Positions 873-60,962 of a stretch of DNA of 64,000 nt are shown here, piece by piece. Below the pieces are notes generated by a model, which was not told where the DNA came from, made no database searches, and saw nothing but the letters and a program-made list of their open reading frames with translations. Origin of the DNA: Octopus vulgaris (lineage: Eukaryota); NCBI GenBank assembly GCA_951406725.2, contig OX597814.1, positions 59,458,001 to 59,522,000 on the forward strand. Direction: 5' to 3'. Position 1 is the first letter of the stretch. Each line of letters starts with the position of its first letter. A program made the translations under genes and the position numbers.

Positions 873-920
873 CATTTCATTACCGGTTTCGGTCATTTCG
901 ATACCTTTTCAACTGTAACG
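873..920 (-). ncRNA. Minimal hammerhead ribozyme, U3-A8 core variant
   Basis: Minus strand: CGTTACAG-TTGAAAA-GGT(ATCGAAATG)ACC-GAAA-CCGG-TA-ATGAAATG. The first pair of stem I is mismatched in this copy. Confidence 0.7.
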
Positions 921-1623: not shown

Positions 1624-3085
1624 TTATTCTAAAGCCGAGGTGTATATATCGTTTGTCGTAGACCCGTTCAGAAGTGGCCTGTATTTTGTAATAAAGAGAG
1701 TTTCTTTACTTATTCGTTGGCTCGAGGTTGTATCATCCCTGAATTGGTAGAGGGGGAAAATCCTGAAGCTTGGTGTTTTGTTGTTGGCGCAAGTATCTAT
1801 GTGTTGGCTGAATGCTATTTTTCTGTTTTCGGGAATTTTTATCTGGGATCTGTGCAGGGCCATTCTTTTACGTAAACTAATTTTTTTTGTTTGGCCTATG
1901 TACTGCTCTTGACGCCCAGAGCAGGTTAGTGTGTATATCAGGTTCTCCAAAGCACATGTGAAGTTGTTTTTCACTGTAAACCGTTGTCCCTGTTTGAAGG
2001 AGAACTCTGATCCCTCAATTAGATAATCGCATTTTTGTCTTCCATATTTTTTTACTGTCGGCTTCTGTGTTGAAGTGCGTATTCGGGCTTGTGTTAGGAG
2101 ACTTTTCATAGATTTAGGCTGTCTCTTGCTTTTTATGATCGTGTGTGTTTGGAGGATTGTGTTCATTCTGTGGTCTTTTTTATGAGGGGTATGTTTTGGA
2201 GGATAGTGCCGAAGGCTTCATTGTTGAGAGGGTTGTGTGTGGAGATGTATTGTAAGGCTTTGGGTCATAAGTTTTTCTTTGATTTGGGATGTCTGAGTTC
2301 CTGGATGTTGAGTTGAAGGGCACGTTGAATGCATATGTCAATAAGTGAAGTTGGGTAGTTCCTGGTGATGAGGGTATCTTTTAGTTCTTGTAGTCATGTG
2401 GCTCTGGTGTTTGCATTAGAAACTATAGTACATATCCTTTTTGCTAGATTGAAGGGGATATTCATTCTGGTGTGTCTGGGGTGGCATGAATTGAATGGAA
2501 GATATTGCTTAGAATCTGTAGGCTTAGAGTATATGTCTGTTTCTATTACATTATTAGCTTTCTTAATGAGGATATCGAGGAAGGGGAGTTGTTGCTGGCT
2601 ATATTTCATCGTGAACTGGATGTTTACGTCCAGCCCATTTAAAATTGCTTGGAATTCTTTGAGTTTCTCTATATTTTCATGCCAAAGAATGAAACGATCA
2701 TCTAGATGTCTCTTCCAGTTGTTTTCTATGTAGATGGAGAAAGGGCTGCCATATCTTTCTAGAACCTTACGATACAGACTGATTTCTAGATATCCCATGA
2801 CTAGGTTGGCAAAGGAGGGGCCATTCGTGTACTCATCGCAGTCCCCGATTTTTGTCGGTAGAAGTTGTCTTTGAAGGCGAAGAAGTTATTTTCCAGGATG
2901 AATTTAACCCCTTCTATCACGAATTCTTTTTTGATGCGATGTGAGAGTTCGTTGGCGTGATTCTCTAGCCAGAATTGAATTGCCTCTATTCCTAGGTTGT
3001 GGGGGGTATTGGAGTAGAGGTTGACTACATCGAAGGATACTAGTAGGGTGTTTTTGTTTATAGTATTAGGTAGAATATATTTCAT
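1624..3085 (-). pseudogene. PLE reverse transcriptase + GIY-YIG endonuclease, frameshifted
   Basis: Motifs LVSFDVVNLYSN, QKSGTAMST, RHLDD, LPFLDILI, YSKPTD, LIYTLTC..QYIGQT and FITKYRPLLN across ORFs 2801-3085, 2394-2798 and 1624-2166. Confidence 0.92.
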
Positions 3086-3794: not shown

Positions 3795-3842
3795 CGTTAC
3801 AGTTGAAAAGGTATCGAAATGACCGAAACCGGTAATGAAATG
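3795..3842 (+). ncRNA. Minimal hammerhead ribozyme, U3-A8 core variant (inverted-arm copy)
   Basis: Same sequence as 873-920, on the opposite strand. Confidence 0.7.
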
Positions 3843-7689: not shown

Positions 7690-9095
7690 TCTTAGATGTC
7701 TATCATTTTTGCATGTTCTATTCCGAAAATGGGAAATCTCTACAGACAGACATTAGTAAAACATCCTTCTGATATCAAGAAAGCTATATTTCAAGTATGG
7801 GCCAAAAATTATAAAAGCCGTAAATTCGCTTTCTGAAACATGATCAAGAACTCCAATGAAGCACGGATATCCGAGAGATGGATCAACTGAACCTCTCATA
7901 TCCTCGCCAGAAAGCTACAAATTAAAACCATCCGTGATGAACCAGCAAAACAGAGAGAACTTAAGGAAAATGTGGTTCTGAGAACTTCAAAATGGAGATA
8001 GAACTCCTGAAACAATCAGAGCTCAATCCCACGAAGAAAATATTACCTCAATTGATGAAGAAATGGAGGTTGAAATCGCGAAAAAAGCTCAAGGGGAACT
8101 TTTTCACAATATCATTCCACTCTGGACACAGAACTTTGAAAACGCGGAAGTAATTACACTTCGACGATGGAATAAAAAACAACAATTGGTTCAATCACTA
8201 TGATGACAAATTCAAGGAGGAAAATCATTCTTGAAAATTAACTAAAAATTATGAACTCCACGCAACCGGAAGAAAGTCGCAACCGGAACAGTACCTGAAT
8301 GCCCATCCAGCACCCAAAATAACCAATACTTTCTTCAGTATTCCAAATACTCATGAAAGACACAAAATGGGAAATTCCAATTCACCCTTCACCGCAAGAC
8401 AAAACACCTCCACTCAAAGATACAGAAACCCATCTCACCCAAAGAACCCTCCACGTCTTAGACGCAACGCCTACAGGAATAACTCTTTCGAACGGAACTA
8501 TAAGAGAAATGAAAATTCCCCACGTCCGAGACACATTCTACATAATGAAAACTTCGAACAGGACCAATCAAGAAGTAGGACCTTCTCCCTCCCAAAACAA
8601 ATCTTTCACAATGATCACTTCGTCCAAACCACAAGATATAACCATTACAACAACACCAGTCAGAACCAACCACAACGGAGAACCGGAAATAGACCAAGCA
8701 TCAACGGAAGGGAAATCAACAGGAGCACTAATTCCTTATATCAAAGCCCAAAAATCCATTTTTTAAGCAAACTGGGCCAAAACCGGGACACTCGATGACA
8801 CCAACCAAATAGGAGATCCTAAATGTGATAAATCTCTTACATAAAACCTTTCAAATCAACAAGTCAAAATTCTCACAAAAGGACTGAAATTCACCCTGAC
8901 ACCACAAAGATCGAACCTAAGTGATATACAAAATGGTATCCAGGAATACTGCAGAAAACGTCGAGAGAAGTATCGGATAAAGAAACTAATGATAACTCAA
9001 TACTTCATAATAAAGGTAACTACAGTCCGACAAAAGGAAGAAATCAAACTCTGGGTAACTTTTGTGATTTGGTATCCAATTATCCCTATAATTTA
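7690..9095 (+). pseudogene. Decayed N-terminal half of a PLE ORF
   Basis: N/Q/R-rich ORF 8367-8798, then frameshifted NVINL..KILTKGLKFTLTPQRSN..IQEYCRK. Homologous to 41273-41730. Confidence 0.75.
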
Positions 9096-9559
9096 CTTCC
9101 ACTTCAATGGAATTTTAAATTCCACAGGGGTCGATTTTGCTTTTCATCGTTACGAGGTCGGTAAATGAAGTACTAGTTGCGTACTGGGGTCGACCTAATC
9201 GACTGTACCCATCCCCCAAAATTTTAGGCCTTTTGCCTGTAGTAGAAATGATTATAATTGTTGTTGTTATTATTATTATTGTCATTATAATTATTGCTGT
9301 TGTCGAGTGAGAACAGCGTATGCATTCAAAGTGACACTTGGGTACAAAATATACGAAGCTCAATATAGCCATCATGACTACCCGTCTAATAAGGGAACAT
9401 CAAGCGCGTACATCATAATACCTACAATTTTCTTGAAGTCGAATAGCCCATCCCGATCAAAAGTTCCCTGAATAAAGTTTGTTTAAGCATGATGAATGAA
9501 ACACACCTGTCCTTATCATCATCATCATCATCATCACCATCACCATCACCATCACCACC

Positions 9560-17426: not shown

Positions 17427-18445
17427 ATCCCAGATAAAAATTCCCCAAAACAGAAAAATAGCTTTTAGCCAACACATAGATACTTGCGCCAACAAAAAAA
17501 CACCAAACTTCAGAATTTTCCCCCTCTACCAATTTAGGGACGATACAACCTCAAGACAACGAATAAGTAAAGAAAATCTCTTTATTACAAAATACAAGCC
17601 ACTTCTTAACGGGTCTACGACAAACAATTAATATACCTCAATTTTAGAATAAAAGAAAAAAATATATATACACACACAAATACTACACTCCATAGAATCC
17701 ATTACTAATCAGCCCCTTCATAGCTATATTTACACCCATTCATATTCTCCCTTCTCTGTTTTTTTCTTCTTCTTCTTCTTCCTCTTCTTCTTCATCATCA
17801 TCGTTATCATCATCATCGGCATCATCATCATCGCCACCATCATCACCACCATCTTCTCCTTCTCCTCCTTCTTCTTCTTCTTCTTCTTCATCATCATCGT
17901 TATCATCATCATCGTCGTCATAATCATCACCACCATCACCATCATCGTCATCTTCTCCTTCTCCTTCTCCTTCTTCTTCTTCCTCTTCTTCTTCTTCTTC
18001 TCCACCCCCTACCCCTTAAGTTTGTCACTAATGTTTTTTAGTATAACACCTACGCTAATTCTATAAACAAGCCTGTCAATATAAATATTCTCCTGAATTG
18101 AACTGAGACTGCCAGCCGCCACTGACCATTCAAAATACGACCATCAGGGCACTCCCAGATTCCCCCACCCCCTTTCCTCACCAGCCTTCCCTCTACTACC
18201 CTACCAAGAACTCACAACTACTTCGAACACACAAGTGCAAACAAGGGAGTCAGAGAAAGGTAGAATGCCACTTAAATCTGAACACTACTATAGAAATATT
18301 CTTTTAAAAAAACTTTTCTTCTAATTTTTCTAAATTTAATTATTTAATCGTTACAGTTGAAAAGGTCTCAAAATGACCGAAACCGGTACTGAAATGTTCA
18401 CTATAAAATTATTTTAGCATTTTCTATTTTTTACTTGTTTTTTCA
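17427..18445 (+). mobile_element. PLE 3' fragment (endonuclease C-terminus + pseudo-LTR), same family as 821-3892
   Basis: Encodes SQIKIPQNRKIAFSQHIDTCAN..FITKYKPLLN, then a UTR homologous to 3118-3892. (TA)n on both sides. Confidence 0.9.
18349..18396 (+). ncRNA. Minimal hammerhead ribozyme, U3-A8 variant, best-preserved copy of its family
   Basis: CGTTACAG-TTGAAAA-GGTC-TCAAAAT-GACC-GAAA-CCGG-TA-CTGAAATG. Stem I pairs 7 of 8 and stem II pairs 4 of 4. Confidence 0.8.
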
Positions 18446-19758: not shown

Positions 19759-20014
19759 ACATAAGGGACATCAGGGCGGTGGAGGTGTTACTGATGCATT
19801 TAGCCCCAGGCGATCATCAACGTCACCAGGAGGGCTGACACCATCACGGTGTCCTTTCTTCGGGGAATGATCTCCCTTTGCAGGCTAGAGGACACCGTGA
19901 TGGTGTCAGCCCTCCTGGTGACGTTGATGATCGCCTGGGGCTAAATGCATCAGTAACACCCCCACCACCCTGCCCTGTCCCTAGCCACATTCAGATGGCT
20001 GATGTCCCTTATGT
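19759..20014. repeat. GC-rich fold-back inverted repeat
   Basis: ~19772-19855 pairs with 19889-19972. Outer ACATAAGGGACATCAG pairs with CTGATGTCCCTTATGT. Lies between two (TA)n tracts. Confidence 0.9.
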
Positions 20015-30590: not shown

Positions 30591-30665
<75 letters not shown>

Positions 30666-30720
30666 TTTAGATTTGTTTTGCAACATTCTTTATATGAGTT
30701 CGTGTGTTGAAGCATATTTT

Positions 30721-31000
30721 GTTGTGTCTGGGGAGAGTTATTTTCTTTCAGTGCCTAATTATTTAACACACTCACCGGTAAAATTTCCACTTATTTCTTT
30801 TTTTATTTTCTAAAATTTTTTCATTGCATCTTGCGATCTTTTTCAATAGTTTTGACTCTTGCAATAGTCAAGACTATTGAAAAGGTTGCAAGACGCAATG
30901 AAAATTTTTGAAAATAAAAATAAGAAATAAGTGGAAATTTTACCGGTGAGTGAGTTAAATAATAAGGCACTAAAAGAGAATGGCTCTCCCCAGACACAAC
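30721..31000. repeat. Fold-back inverted repeat with ~135-bp arms between (TA)n tracts
   Basis: GTTGTGTCTGGGGAGAG..TTTTCAATAGTTTTGAC pairs with GTCAAGACTATTGAAAA..CTCTCCCCAGACACAAC. Confidence 0.9.
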
Positions 31001-31001
31001 A

Positions 31002-31084
<83 letters not shown>

Positions 31085-31173
31085 TATGTATATGTATGTA
31101 TGTATGAAAACATGTTTGAAGATTTCCATATTTTAAATATTAAGAAAAGAGAGGTAGTCAGAATTCTGGATAA

Positions 31174-39946: not shown

Positions 39947-40217
39947 AGATACCAACACGCTAAGAGGGACCAATGCGGTCAAAACTACTAAAAATAAACA
40001 AAATTTTACCGAATGCAAAACTTCAAAACACATCATTTTAAAAAAGAATTCAGTTACATATCACATGTGATTTCGCATTAAATGCGAAATCACATGTGAT
40101 ATGTAACTGAATTCTTTTTTTTTTAAAATGATGTGTTTTGAAGTTTTGCATTCGGTAAAATTTTGTTTATTTTTAGTAGTTTTGACCGCATTGGTCCCTC
40201 TTAGCGTGTTGGTATCT
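39947..40217. repeat. Near-perfect fold-back palindrome of the HHR-bearing repeat seen at 1-312
   Basis: Arms of ~133 bp with axis at TTCGCATT-A-AATGCGAA (~40080). Confidence 0.92.
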
Positions 40218-40503: not shown

Positions 40504-40561
<58 letters not shown>

Positions 40562-40652
40562 ATAAGAGTAGATCGTGTACGAGTGGGTATATATTTGTAA
40601 AATAGAAGTTTGAAAACGCCACTATATTATATCAATTTTAATTTTCTTATGA

Positions 40653-40697
40653 ATTTTACATGTTTCGGTTCTTGAAAAAACGAACCTTATCAAAAAT
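40653..40697 (-). ncRNA. Minimal hammerhead ribozyme, U3-A8 core variant
   Basis: Minus strand: ATTT-TTGATAA-GGTTC-GTTTTTTCAA-GAACC-GAAA-CATG-TA-AAAT. All stems pair fully. Confidence 0.8.
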
Positions 40698-41272
40698 ATT
40701 TTTAAAAGTAAAGTGTAATAGAAAAGTTCATGATTGTTTCTTACTGGTCTCAATAGAATCCACGTGGTAGTGTTTTGTTGGTAGTAGGTATAATAGCTAT
40801 AAATTTCAAGTTGAGTGTAGTAAAGAAGTTCATTATTGTTTCTTGCTGGTATCAACGGGATCCACGTGGCTGTTTTTAGCTTTCTTGTGTTAGAATGACC
40901 CGCGACTGGAATGGTAGCAGCAGTAGCGATTGTTGGTTGTTGAAGTAGTAACCGTTGTGGTGGTTGGGGTTGCAGCAGCTCAGCTGTGGCAGTGGGATGA
41001 CCAGTGGCTGAGATGTCAGTAGCAGCAATTACTGTTGGTCGTAGTAGTGGTAACTGTGGTGGTGTTTGGGGTTGTAGCAGTTTAGCTGTGGCCGTAGTAG
41101 CAGCAGCAGTAGTGGGGGACTGTTGATCGTAGCAGCAATAGTAGTGACCACGATGGTTGTAGTAGTAGTGATGATAGTGGAAGCAGTCGTAGTGATCGTG
41201 GTGGTTGTGGTAGAATTCCATTTTTCTTTACGGAAGACCAATGTTTTGTTTTAATATTCCTGGCCCAATTCT

Positions 41273-43857
41273 ATGAAATACAATCCACATAACCAAACTA
41301 AGACTCCACCACCAAACCTCTACCCTAGGAACCAACCATACAAACCTAACAAACAACAAACACACTACGGAAGAAACAACTACCAACACTATATACCTGA
41401 TACACTAAGAGGGAACACGAGGTACAAAAACACACTACAAAACAGAGCACCACAAACTCACTCTGAAAATTATAACAACAGGAGTCAGATAAACAGTGTT
41501 TTTGAACATAACTACACAAACCATGTTTTAGACCTAACACACAGGAACAGGGATACACGATGGCAACGGACAAACAAAAGAAACCACAGGTAATTAAATA
41601 ATCAATCTCTCGAATAAAGAACTTACACCTAACGAAATAAAGCATACTTTCCAAAGGACTTAAATTTACACCAACCCCATAACGTTCTAATTACTATGAA
41701 ATGAAACATGATATTTCGGAATTTTGTAGGAAACTAAGACTTGTCGAGGAATTTCATGGCAAGCAAATAGATGATGAATCAATAGCTAGAAACAACAGCG
41801 ATTACACTCCTACCAAGGGAAAGAATAAAGCCTTAGACCGCTATTGTGACTACATAACTAATTTCCCTTTTCAATTCACCAAGAAACAAAAACACAGCCA
41901 AAACTTTAACAAAAGAGAATGGAACGACCTCATCAAACTAAGAGAAGACAAAACAATAACAATTAAGGAGGCAGATAAGGGCAACGCGGTAGTATTAATG
42001 AATACAAACGATTATAAAAAGTTAGTGCTATCCCTATTAAGAGATGAAACATATTATGAAAGGGCCCAACATTATAATCAGCCAAAAATAATGTATAACC
42101 TCAGGACATTAATTAACACATACCGAGAAGGACTCACGGACAAGGAGTATGAATACATCACTAACTTCAAGTGCAAATCGAGTTTGTTCTACGGTATCCC
42201 TAAAGTCCACAAAAGCCAAATAATTAGTGAAACATGCAAGACATCTACCGATATACTCATCACAATCCCTTCACCAAATGATCTTCAACTTAGACCGATA
42301 ATAGCAGGCCCAGCATGTGAAACTCACCGCCTCGGCAATTTCTTAGACATACTTCTTAAACCTTTCCTAAAGCACATCAAAAGCTACGTAAGAGACGATA
42401 TAGACATGCTTAACCACCTCCCAAAAGCAGTCAATGAGAAAACCCTACTAGTATCCTTCGACGTAATTAACCTTTATTCAAACATCCCTCACACCCTAGG
42501 AATAGAAGCGATCACTTTCTGACTAAATAACTACTCCTTTGAAATCCCAACTCGCATAAATAAAGAACTTATAATAGAAGGACTTAGATTCATTTTAGAA
42601 AACAATTACTTTATTTTTGACAGTAATTTCTACAGACGAAGATCGGGAACAGCGATGGGCACGCGTACTGCGCCTTCTTTTGCCAACCTAGTGATGGGAT
42701 ACCTCGAGAAAATACTCTACCAGAAAACACGCGAGAAATATGGAAACACCTTCTCCACATATATCCAGAACAACTGGAAAAGATACCTCGACGACTGCTT
42801 TATCCTCTGGGATAAAAGTATAGAGAAACTTGAGGAATTTAAAATACTATTAAATGGAATAAATGATAATATTCAGTTCACGATGGATCATAACGAAAAA
42901 GAATTGCCATTTTTAGACATCCTCATTAAGAAAGTCGGCAACAAAATAGAGACAGATATCTATTATAAACCGACATACTCCAAGCAGTACCGACCCTTTG
43001 ATTCATGCCACACAAGACACACTAGAATAAATGTCCCTTTTTGTTTAGCTAGAAGGATTTGCACCATAATATCAGACACAAACACCCGACACACACGCCT
43101 CCAGGAACTTAGAACTACACTCATAAATAGAAATTATCCACAGCTCCTAATAGACAGTGCAATCCAACGAGCACTTAAATTAAGTATAGAAGACTTGAGA
43201 CAAACAAAACCAAAAAAGAAAGAAAAATTAAAAACCCTTCCCTACATCTCTACACACAACCCACTTAACAATGAGGCTTTCAACACCATACTACAAAGCA
43301 CAGCCCTACTAAAGGGAGACCCAAAGATGAACCGGATCCTCGAAACACACACCATCATTAAAAGTAAACGGCAACCAAAATCCTTGAAAAAGATTTTAAC
43401 CCAAGCTAAACTGCACTCAACATCAACCACAAAACCAGCTGTTAGAAAATGTGGAAAGCCCAACTGCGGAATCTGTGTCATCTTGGTAGAAGGTTCAGAA
43501 TTCACATTAGAACAAGGCCATCAGTTCACCATCAGAAAAAACTTCACCTGTGCATCAGAAAACTTAATTTACGTCTTAACATGCGCAGGCTGCAATAGGC
43601 AGTATATAGGCCATACAAAAAACAGCTTACGTAAAAGGATGGCGGTGCATAAATCCCAAATTAGAAACCCTGAATACCGGAAAATACCAGTCAACGGACA
43701 CATAGATAGATCCGCTTAAAAAAAAAGTCCGAAATTTACAACTTGCCCACTCTACAAATTCAGTGACAGCGTAACCTTCACTCAACGCCAAAATAAGGAA
43801 CTTTATTTCATTATAAAATTTAGACCAAGTTTGAACACCCTGGGCCACGAATATTAA
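41273..43857 (+). pseudogene. PLE polyprotein (DKG domain, RT, Zn-knuckle linker, GIY-YIG)
   Basis: KGLKFTPTP, IKEADKG, YGIPKVHK, LRPII, SFDVINLYSNIP, GTAMGT, RYLDD, CGKPNCGIC and LIYVLTCAGCNRQYIGHT. 41701-43857 is one frame broken by TGA at 42520 (Trp in paralogues) and TAA at 43717. Confidence 0.93.
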
Positions 43858-43928
43858 AACAAAACATGTAAAATTCATAAGAAAATTAAAATTGATATAA
43901 TATAGCGGCGTTTTCAAACTTCTTTTTT

Positions 43929-43989
<61 letters not shown>

Positions 43990-44098: not shown

Positions 44099-44157
44099 GG
44101 CAGTTTAGCTTAATGGTAAAGCAATCTGCCGGATGTTGGTTCCAGTCCAATGGCTAT
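44099..44157 (+). pseudogene. tRNA-like fragment or orphan SINE head
   Basis: TAGCTTAATGGTAAAGC (D-arm/A-box) and GGTTCCAGTCC (B-box-like), with no anticodon arm. Confidence 0.35.
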
Positions 44158-44459
44158 TTGTTGGCAAATTTGTTCTTTTATAATTTACCTGGTATTTTTT
44201 CCTGTTCTAACTGCAATTTTGCGTTCGAGTGAATATCATATATTTAACGTGCAATACAATAAGGTGATATGTGTTCACAAATTTTTCCGCTTTGTAATTT
44301 ACCCAATATTTCTGCTGTTCTAACGGCAATTCTTCGTTTGAACAAACACCACATTTTTTTGTATCATATATATATATATATATATATGGCCTCGCACCGA
44401 CCAAAGCCTTGTGAGTGGATTTGCAACACGCAACCTGAAAGAAGTTCGTCGTATATATG

Positions 44460-58390: not shown

Positions 58391-59109
58391 CTTTTCATCA
58401 ATCATCTTATTAATGTTATTGTCCAGCCCGCAGCTACTACTTCTATGTAATGCCTTGATGGTAAATTGAATGAAATAAAGTAGGTAGATAGATAGATAAA
58501 TAGATAGATAGATCTGTTGAACAATTTTATACGCAACAGTGAAACAATTTCTATAAATTTATTATCTCCTTATTAACTTGTATAAATACGTATATTTCTT
58601 TTGATGATTTGAACTGTGCCATTAATCATTCATTGATTTAATCGCGTCCTTATCCTCAAAGCAGTTAGCTGCATCAAAATGTTTCGTGAAATTTCTACAT
58701 TATTGCGTCTATGCTGAGTGTAATACTTAAATTCCTTACATATAGCATCGAAAGTAATGTCATTACAAATAGAAATAATAAAATAAGGAGGGTAATAATA
58801 TAGTGTTTAGAATATTTCTAACTCTGATATATCAATATATGCTTCATTGTATATATAATTCGTTTCGAAGCCTCTCTCAGAAAGCTATTTATTTTAATTA
58901 TAATTACCATTGCCGTTCAATCACTTAGAAGCAACTCGTAATTAAATTTTTATCAAACATTTATTTGAATGCTCTCAATGGGAAAATGTGAGACATTTCT
59001 TCCCTTGATATGTCTTTACTTCAGAAGCTTACTTTTCATTGCTCAGTTCTCAGCACTATTAGCTTAAATGTGAATAAGTTGAGGGTTAAAAACATATAGA
59101 ATTTACCAA

Positions 59110-60902
59110 TTTGTTTGGCATCTTACTGAAACCCATTCTTAAAAATATCGAAAACTCCATTAGAGATCATCTCGATATGTTACCCGAGACAATCAATGAA
59201 AAGACAGGCATGGTATCCTTCGATGTTTTGAACCTGTATACTAATATCCTACACGACTATGGAATAGAATCATTCAAATTCTGGTTGGAAGAATTATCCA
59301 GTAGATTTACCAGGAACAAGGTATTTATAATTGAAGCATGAAAATTCATTCCCCAGAAAATTACTTCTTGTTTGTTACCAATGACTACCGATATGAATGT
59401 GGAAAGGCGATGGGTACAAAAGCAGCCCCAGTTCTTACTAACTTAGTAATGGAGTGTTTAAAATCGGCAATATATCAAAATATCGATACTCATTTTACCA
59501 ATATGTGAACAAGAAATGATAGCTGGATGACTGTCTTATTTTTTGGAATGTAAGTATTGATACATCATTCTAATTTAAAACCCTGCTTAATGATATAAAT
59601 GCTACCATTCAATTTGCTAAGGAATACAGCAAAGAGAAACTTCCATTCCTTGATATTTTAATTTAGAAAGTAAACAACCAAATTGAAACCGATATCTATT
59701 ATAAATCCACAGACTCGAGGCAATACGTACTACATAACTCATGCACTAGAAGCAGATTAAAATAAATTTAGAAAAGGATTCGCGGAAACGGGATTTGCGA
59801 CACCATGAACATATACATATATTAGTCGAGAGATATTATCCACGATCACTGACAGCTAATGGGATATAAAATGTACCAAGAGAATTGATATCCAAACACC
59901 GAGAGAAATAAAACGAAATAATAAACCCGATCAAACATTACTACCCTATATTTCTAGCCACAATTCTAGAAACAATGAGGCATATAACCCTATTATTCAA
60001 AATTTACCTATGCTCACTAAGATGAACTAACTTCTACGCACACACAAATTCATCAAACGCAAAACCAACCAAAGTCACTTGGAGAATATTGACAGTTGTG
60101 AAAACTGAACCCAACAGCAACAGAACCAAGAGTGAAAAGATGCGGGGATCCAAACTATGGAAAATGTCTCATCTTCCTGAAAGGGCTGAAATTCCACTTC
60201 AAACAAAGCCAAAGATTCAAACATAAGACTGAGTTTACACCTGCATCTGAAAACTTAATATATGTGATAACTTGTTGAGGATGTGTCCTTAGCTATATAG
60301 GTTGACCAAGTATACCTCTCAGACAGAGAATAGTATAGTGAAAAAACTGTTTTCCCAGGTGTAGGTAAATGCCGTTAAGTAATAGAGAGATACGAAGGAC
60401 TTCTCCAACCAAATTTCATAATTTCTTTCCCTATTTACTAATGCAACGACAAATTCTGTACAACAACCGTCAGATATAATATCTTCCTTTATTGAAAAAT
60501 ACGAACCACACTTGATTATGAAGATATAACCGATTTTAGAATTTGTAAATATCTTAATTACTAAATATACAATTGCATTACCTAATCGTAAACAAAAACC
60601 GATAATAACCCCAACCCAGCTTGCTTCTAATACTTATAAATTACCTCTCGTCAAAAATTGATTTCCTTCCAGATTCATTCACAAAATATCATTCCTATTA
60701 CTAAAATAGAATGAAAACATCCTATGGTTGATGTAATTGTAATATTATCACTAAATGTTTAATCCTGATTAGCAAAAGCGAAACCGATCGCTTTTGTAAC
60801 TATTTCATCGCATAAAACAATATATATATTCTATACGTCAACCAGCCATTGACTTTTTCGCCACAATATATCACGGGTGGATTTTTCTTTCAGCGAAGCT
60901 TG

Positions 60903-60905
<3 letters not shown>
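59110..60905 (+). mobile_element. Decayed 5'-truncated PLE (RT-EN plus 3' UTR)
   Basis: ILLKPILK, VSFDVLNLYTNI, GKAMGT, LDD, LPFLDILI, YYKSTD and SENLIYVITC. Ends at (TA)n. Confidence 0.85.
60761..60793 (+). ncRNA. Decayed minimal hammerhead in the PLE 3' UTR
   Basis: AATC-CTGATTA-GC-AAAA-GC-GAAA-CCGA-TC-GCTT. Three substitutions away from a canonical minimal HHR, at the expected position. Confidence 0.5.

Positions 60906-60962
<57 letters not shown>

What the first reader, a model, noticed from the sequence alone, without database searches (positions are those of the whole stretch)
40653..40697. Second U3-A8 hammerhead (UUGAUAA) attached to a near-complete PLE
Seen: perfect 4-bp stem I, 5-bp stem II and ACATGT palindrome. 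Its stems and N7 differ from the 18349 family, yet it has the same 3-8 swap. It lies in the inverted pseudo-LTR of the 40590-43937 element, whose RT is related to that at 1624-3085. Inference: the variant core is a lineage trait kept while surrounding sequence diverged.
Basis: partly seen in the sequence, partly recalled or inferred. Interest (0 to 1): 0.72.

Follow-up and report, generated by a model that had tools for sequence, protein, structure and literature searches.

The report
Known-type hammerhead in dead Penelope retroelement
This 45-base motif has the full layout of the small, likely self-cutting hammerhead RNAs carried by Penelope-like jumping genes; its swapped U-A core pair is shared with a sister family in the same genome but is already in print, so it is an ordinary new example on a broken element.

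Summary
Observation confirmed. Minus strand 40697-40653 holds a minimal type-I hammerhead: 4-bp stem I, core U3-U4-G5-A6-U7-A8-A9, 5-bp stem II, GAA, a 6-nt palindrome, and A17 at 40657. A strict scan gave 2 hits in the window and 0 in 40 shuffles. It lies in the inverted 3' UTR (pLTR) of a full-length but dead Neptune/Nematis-type PLE. The sense 3' copy has lost the core in a 581-nt deletion, so the insertion has one intact motif and no same-strand partner. The 1624-3085 element is the 18349 family itself and also carries U3-A8. The two RTs are sisters (99/93), so shared inheritance is the simplest reading. The swap is not special: U3-A8 also occurs in three other places on the PLE tree, and one clade of all five U3-A8 elements is rejected. 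U3-A8 is in print (PMC3088659; PMC4209133), and the same two core strings appear in Schistosoma PLE hammerheads. This scan noted U3-A8 PLE hammerheads on other DNA at least six times. Cleavage is untested. Verdict: new member of a known kind, low interest.

The parts
40653..40697 (-). Minimal type-I hammerhead motif, U3-A8 core, 6-nt palindromic stem III, GUA triplet; predicted cut between 40657 and 40656
40590..41267 (-). Inverted complete 3' UTR (pLTR) of the element; begins in the last codons of the ORF and carries the hammerhead about 60 nt before its end
   Evidence: 41267-41241 matches 43841-43867 at 26 of 27 and 40661-40592 matches 43866-43935 at 68 of 70; loose ends in runs X14 and X7 continue from about 41267 into the ORF end
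40558..40587 (-). About 30-nt 'tail' present only at this end, followed by (TA)n
   Evidence: matches the description in PMC8557442
41560..43857 (+). Full-length but broken PLE ORF: RT (GLKF, DKG, YLDD motifs), linker C-x4-C-x2-C, GIY-YIG endonuclease with CCHH; stops at 41599, 41638, 41680, 42520, 43717
43858..43937 (+). Sense 3' UTR lacking 581 nt relative to the inverted copy, joined at a 6-nt microhomology; hammerhead core and stem II lost, palindrome and triplet kept; then (TA)n
18354..18391 (+). U3-A8 hammerhead of the sister family (UUGAAAA core, ACCGGU palindrome)
878..915 (-). U3-A8 hammerhead in the 3' UTR of the 1624-3085 element (same family as 18349), with one mismatch each in stems I and II
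3800..3837 (+). U3-A8 hammerhead in the inverted pLTR of the 1624-3085 element, same mismatches
1624..3085 (-). 5'-truncated, frameshifted RT/EN ORF of the sister PLE family
60761..60793 (+). Decayed hammerhead-like motif with C3 (position 8 is U) behind a third, heavily decayed PLE (59099 to about 60520); used as tentative local outgroup
   Evidence: read by eye

Best explanation
The motif is a minimal type-I hammerhead with a U3-A8 core pair in the inverted 3' repeat of a broken Penelope-like retrotransposon; in active family members it likely cuts the element's RNA weakly, as a dimer joined through its palindrome, while this copy is probably inert. Shown: the anatomy, the position in the pLTR, the dead ORF, the loss of the second hammerhead, and the sister relation to the other U3-A8 family. 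Inferred: the 3-8 pair changed from C-G to U-A once in the ancestor of the two families and was kept because it still pairs. Two copies would pair their 6-nt palindromes to make stem III and cut after A17, possibly helped by the element's protein. The inverted copy arose during insertion, so it is read only on a transcript antisense to the ORF and would need a partner in trans.
For: All core positions and helices are present and beyond chance. Two copies cofold through the palindrome at -18.6 against -12.0 kcal/mol for two monomers, with stem II kept. Position and architecture match PLE hammerheads and inverted pLTRs with a one-sided tail. Contigs of 4 runs: none of the 39 places in the 40 best-supported difference rows lies in 40653-40697 (66 rows hidden). 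The one listed indel inside the motif is a 3-nt insertion (27% of depth in X1) that lengthens loop II and keeps stem II. Of the 16 closest loci, 8 have a C3-G8 hammerhead behind the ORF (1 more doubtful), 1 has U3-A8 and 6 have none; several share the 6-nt palindrome layout. Sister status 99/93. Covarying 3-8 pairs are reported active in vitro (PMC3088659). Minimal PLE hammerheads cut weakly as dimers and not as monomers (PMC4209133). One PLE hammerhead needed the element's protein (PMC11167929).
Against: No cleavage data for this motif. Stem I is four A-U pairs and is hardly formed in a monomer fold. The conservation signal is weak: the chance of 0 listed differences in the 45 nt is 0.077 over the whole stretch and 0.036 within 40575-40780, and most rows were hidden. 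Both hammerhead copies of the 1624-3085 element have stem mismatches. In the anole PLE, cleavage was not needed for insertion in vitro and no RNA-seq read ends were found at the site, so the biological role is open. The label of the C3 outgroup at 60765 rests on a decayed copy with a long branch.
Confidence: 0.8

Rival explanations
1. The two families gained U3-A8 independently, by parallel change in an AT-rich, fast-evolving motif.
For: The swap recurs: at least 5 changes among three core states on a 25-row tree. In PMC4209133 Fig. S3, an S. mansoni U3-A8 motif and an S. japonicum C3-G8 motif have closely similar stems II, and a U3-G8 motif is listed for Saccoglossus. The motif region is 27% GC.
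Against: The two RTs are sisters at 99/93, so one origin needs fewer steps; no C3-G8 family was found between them.
Confidence: 0.12
2. The motif is a hammerhead relic that no longer cuts in any family member; it is kept as a binding or folding signal near the RNA 3' end, or it merely drifts.
For: Weak stem I; stem mismatches in sister-family copies; the cited papers report low activity for this class and dispensable cleavage in vitro.
Against: All catalytic positions, the 3-8 pair and a self-complementary stem III are kept in two diverged families whose stems and palindromes differ.
Confidence: 0.07
3. Chance match in AT-rich DNA.
For: Unremarkable folding energy; no Rfam match; loose descriptors give 0.8 hits per shuffled window.
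Against: 0 strict hits in 40 shuffles and 0 in 100; all 4 window matches sit at the expected place in PLE 3' UTRs.
Confidence: 0.01

Closest known systems
U3-A8 minimal hammerheads of Cercyon PLEs in Schistosoma mansoni (Cervera and De la Pena 2014, PMC4209133; about 1,300 hits)
   Same: Type-I minimal hammerhead in a PLE terminal repeat; U3-A8 core. Fig. S3 lists the same 7-nt cores UUGAUAA and UUGAAAA found here. Opposite-strand second copies are described there too.
   Different: Here there is no extra nucleotide between position 9 and 10.1; the palindrome is 6 nt rather than 4; H17 is A; the host PLE has a linker zinc finger (Neptune/Nematis type).
PLE hammerheads with a small palindromic helix III (shrimp Marsupenaeus, Saccoglossus 2, Aedes, Drosophila willistoni in PMC4209133)
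   Same: Palindrome longer than the 4-nt minimum; Marsupenaeus and Saccoglossus 2 also lack the extra nucleotide and have A17.
   Different: Those have C3-G8.
Natural U3-A8 core covariation (Perreault et al. 2011, PMC3088659)
   Same: Same compensatory swap, seen in several natural hammerheads.
   Different: The section read does not tie them to PLEs or to loop-less stem III.
Neptune/Nematis-type EN+ Penelope-like elements (Craig et al. 2021, PMC8557442)
   Same: C-terminal GIY-YIG with CCHH, CX2-5CxxC linker, DKG motif, (TA)n flanks, inverted 5' repeat, one-sided tail, hammerhead near the 3' end.
   Different: This copy is dead and its sense 3' repeat lacks the hammerhead core. Neptune versus Nematis was not resolved.

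Membership tests
Minimal type-I PLE hammerhead | Core N3-UGA-N7-N8-A9 with a Watson-Crick 3-8 pair, and GAAA | tested here: met
   U3-A8
Minimal type-I PLE hammerhead | Helix II with G10.1-C11.1 and open helix I | tested here: met
   5-bp stem II (pair probability about 0.85), 4-bp stem I (pairable, under 1% in monomer context)
Minimal type-I PLE hammerhead | Palindromic stem III region and UH triplet | tested here: met
   6-nt palindrome, GUA; cofold through the palindrome
Minimal type-I PLE hammerhead | Location in the pLTR / 3' UTR of a PLE | tested here: met
Minimal type-I PLE hammerhead | Extra unpaired nucleotide between 9 and 10.1 (usual, not universal) | tested here: not met
   Absent here; also absent in the Marsupenaeus and Saccoglossus 2 examples of Fig. 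S3 and in locus L006, so it does not define the class
Minimal type-I PLE hammerhead | Conservation across family copies | tested here: inconclusive
   0 of 39 shown difference places in the motif, 66 rows hidden, P 0.04-0.08
Minimal type-I PLE hammerhead | Self-cleavage as a dimer | not testable with these tools
   No assay; only contigs, no raw RNA reads, were listed
Rfam hammerhead families | Covariance-model match | tested here: not met
   No hammerhead model at E up to 10 on 40590-40800; the canonical-core PLE hammerhead in L006 was also missed at E up to 0.5, so the models are insensitive to this class
EN+ Penelope-like element, Neptune/Nematis type | Single ORF with RT and C-terminal GIY-YIG carrying CCHH | tested here: met
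   Pfam GIY-YIG above cut-off; homologues carry RT PF00078; translation
EN+ Penelope-like element, Neptune/Nematis type | CX2-5CxxC zinc finger in the RT-EN linker | tested here: met
   C-x4-C-x2-C; invariant cysteines in alignment A2; definition from PMC8557442
EN+ Penelope-like element, Neptune/Nematis type | Placement with named Neptune or Nematis reference elements in an RT tree | not tested
   No named reference sequences were in hand

The most novel reading that the evidence does not exclude
The U3-A8 hammerhead of this family does cut in vivo, the cut RNA is sometimes reverse-transcribed and inserted, and the differing palindromes of the two sister families act as family-specific dimer addresses. 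The one hint: a loose-end consensus in run X14 leaves the family sequence exactly at the predicted scissile bond (8 contigs, median loose length 11, so the far letters rest on one or a few contigs). If insertions ending at A17 are enriched genome-wide, that would be a genomic footprint of PLE hammerhead cleavage in vivo, which the papers read here lack.
Probability: 0.08. Interest if true: 0.55.

Novelty: new member of a known kind. Interest (0 to 1): 0.14.

Why it matters
It matters little alone: the U3-A8 hammerhead in Penelope-like elements is published. It adds a case in a Neptune/Nematis-type element and a small tree indicating that the swap can be inherited by sister families yet recurs across PLEs. 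Two sister families with the same core but different stems and palindromes would be a handy pair for testing whether PLE hammerheads dimerise in a family-specific way and whether they cut in vivo.

Tried and rejected
No whole genome is held for this window, so no genome-wide family survey was possible. Rfam: window-wide matches among the 150 of 195 shown were microsatellite-driven miRNA models and similar noise; no hammerhead match locally or on 6 loci. Viral contigs: no PLE relatives; the U3-A8 pattern hit 117 stretches, 0 of 117 with the helices and palindrome. The genome behind L085 gave 10 pattern matches against 15 for the reversed control; I recognised only the L085 motif itself and did not examine the other nine further. 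Sequencing runs: no RNA holder listed on record, contigs only, so no start or end of RNA could be seen. An intron explanation for the 581-nt difference was rejected: by inspection no register on either strand gives GT..AG. The junction is 3 nt upstream of the predicted cut, so it is not a ligation at the cleavage site. The 201-aa ORF 40622-41227 (-) has no Pfam match and is low-complexity UTR; not treated as a gene. A third loose hit at 8357-8313 (-) with a 14-nt non-palindromic stem III lies within a PLE 5' fragment and was taken as chance. A clade of the two window families with L083-L085 was only marginally rejected (p-AU 0.039, group chosen after seeing a tree), and a quick 25-row tree put L085 near them at support 81. 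Lunse et al. 2016 is not held: title only. A sequence look-up in earlier findings gave nothing. The host organism was not identified.

Full report
Observation. The minus strand at 40697-40653 reads as a type-I minimal hammerhead: 4-bp stem I, core U3 U4 G5 A6 U7 A8 A9, 5-bp stem II with G10.1-C11.1 and a 10-nt loop, G12 A13 A14, the palindrome ACAUGU, and A17 at 40657. A strict descriptor found 2 motifs in the window (this one and 18354-18391) and 0 in 40 block-wise Markov shuffles; the loose version found 3 real hits against 0.8 per shuffle. A pattern built afterwards from both motifs found 4 window matches (912 -, 3803 +, 18357 +, 40693 -) and 0 in 100 shuffles. Folding energy alone is unremarkable (z -0.65). 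In context stem II is stable (about 0.85) and stem I is not (under 0.01). Two copies cofold through the palindrome at -18.6 against -12.0 kcal/mol for two monomers. No Rfam hammerhead model matches, but Rfam also missed the canonical-core PLE hammerhead in L006.

The element. One frame, 41560-43857, aligns with residues 1-752 of a 753-aa homologue at 57%. It has five stops, two of them in what appears to be a short compensated frameshift near the start. It carries GLKF, DKG and YLDD motifs, a C-x4-C-x2-C linker and a GIY-YIG domain with CCHH, which by the definitions in PMC8557442 makes it a Neptune/Nematis-type EN+ PLE. The inverted piece 41267-40590 is the complete 3' UTR. Its first 27 nt match the ORF end at 43841-43867, its last 70 nt match 43866-43935, and contigs in runs X14 and X7 continue from about 41267 into the ORF end. 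The sense 3' copy lacks 581 nt between two copies of a 6-nt microhomology, which removes the core and stem II. So this insertion has one intact hammerhead, antisense to the ORF, with no same-strand partner. An approximately 30-nt tail at one end and (TA)n flanks fit the published PLE architecture.

Family copies. Contigs of 4 of the 24 listed runs were laid on 40575-41300 at 80% likeness. The 40 best-supported difference rows (39 places; each 72% or more of depth in at least one run) include none inside the motif; 66 rows were not shown. The chance of that is 0.077 over the stretch and 0.036 within 40575-40780, so this is weak support. Of 12 indel rows shown (14 hidden), one lies in the motif: 3 extra nucleotides (27% of depth in X1) that extend loop II. 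Summed contig depth is much higher over the last 200 nt of the UTR than upstream, which would fit many 5'-truncated copies, but the tool warns that it is no copy number. No run gave raw RNA reads, so cleavage could not be observed.

Lineage test. A third, decayed PLE has a C3 motif at 60765 whose position 8 is U, one change from C3-G8 and two from U3-A8 (by eye). I fetched 99 related loci (80 of 243 confirmed in a partial metagenome scan, 19 from genome bins). A structure scan gave 28 motifs: 22 C3-G8, 4 U3-A8, 1 A3-U8, 1 G3-C8. Among the 16 closest loci a looser scan gave 8 C3-G8, 1 doubtful C3-G8, 1 U3-A8 and 6 without a motif. Trees used query columns 245-700, and I assigned each label from the motif behind the ORF. 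The two window U3-A8 families are sisters in all three trees (SH-aLRT 95 in the 46-row quick tree; 85 in the 25-row quick tree; 99/93 in the 26-row careful tree). On the 25 labelled rows at least 5 changes among three core states are needed, and one clade of the five U3-A8 rows is rejected (p-AU 4e-115). Left out of that tree: unlabelled rows, L082, the near-duplicate or gappy L010, L037, L051 and L052, and loci L035, L048, L065, L069, L090 and L091, which were never entered. The position of L085 is unstable. The six closest proteins have no DNA context. So 'lineage trait' holds for two sister families, while the swap recurs across PLEs.

Mechanism. By established hammerhead chemistry (recalled) and the papers read, C3-G8 is a Watson-Crick pair that tolerates compensatory exchange (PMC3088659; PMC11167929). 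Loop-less palindromic stem III implies dimer activity, which is low in vitro (PMC4209133). The anole PLE hammerhead needed the element's protein and was dispensable for insertion in vitro. The likely role in active family members is weak processing of tandem transcripts; this copy is probably inert. Both points are inferred.

Known status. PMC4209133 reports U3-A8 in S. mansoni Cercyon PLEs with about 1,300 hits, and its Fig. S3 lists the very cores UUGAUAA and UUGAAAA. PMC3088659 reported natural U3-A8 in 2011. I found no paper mapping the swap onto a PLE tree or reporting it in Neptune-type elements, in searches of an open-access library; Lunse et al. 2016, which may cover this, is not held, and the supplements of PMC8557442 were not read. 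What I saw: PMC4209133 main text parts 1-2 of 4 and supplement parts 1-2 of 3; PMC3088659 passages and section 8; PMC8557442, PMC11167929, PMC6765202, PMC7151607 and PMC2920678 passages; bioRxiv 10.64898/2026.07.22.740005 part 1 of 5; Przybilski and Hammann 2007 and Lunse 2016 titles only. Six earlier notes of this scan describe U3-A8 PLE hammerheads on other genomes with the same verdict; they are not independent evidence.

Verdict. Observation confirmed; interpretation partly supported; new member of a known kind; interest 0.14.

Noticed in passing
window 40656/40657; run X14 loose end before 40669: The consensus of 8 contigs leaves the family sequence exactly at the predicted cleavage bond; the far letters rest on one or a few contigs. 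It could be an insertion of a cleaved RNA, a subfamily with another stem I, or chance.
   Followed up: no
window 43858-43937 (+): The sense 3' UTR has a 581-nt microhomology deletion that removes the hammerhead core while the inverted copy of the same insertion is intact.
   Followed up: yes
window 59099-60910 (+): Third, heavily decayed PLE with a C3-type hammerhead-like relic at 60761-60793, a short 2-bp stem II like relatives L001 and L010, then (TA)n.
   Followed up: partly
window 8235-9107 (+): 5' fragment of another PLE (matches residues 19-101 of P0001) preceded by an open frame rich in N, R, Q and T.
   Followed up: no
window 39947-40217, 30593-31105, 19764-19982, 561-743: Several long palindromic (MITE-like) inverted repeats; 39947-40217 is 97% self-complementary and related to 155-358.
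   Followed up: no
window 44099-44159 (+): Weak tRNA-like match (26.3 bits, gathering score 29), possibly the head of a tRNA-derived SINE next to the element.
   Followed up: no
L059:1964-2004 (+), L067:2212-2250 (+), L065:113-155 (+): Sister PLEs L059 and L067 carry A3-U8 and U3-A8 hammerheads; L065 has a G3-C8 candidate. All four Watson-Crick forms of the 3-8 pair occur among the 99 loci.
   Followed up: partly
L081-L099: PLE retrotransposon contigs sit in bacterial genome bins, most likely eukaryotic host contamination.
   Followed up: no
viral loci with a 44-nt match, such as L113: A recurring 44-nt stretch with hammerhead-like core strings but without the helices (about 40 of 117 matches in four close variants); no Rfam match in 3 loci tested.
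   Followed up: partly
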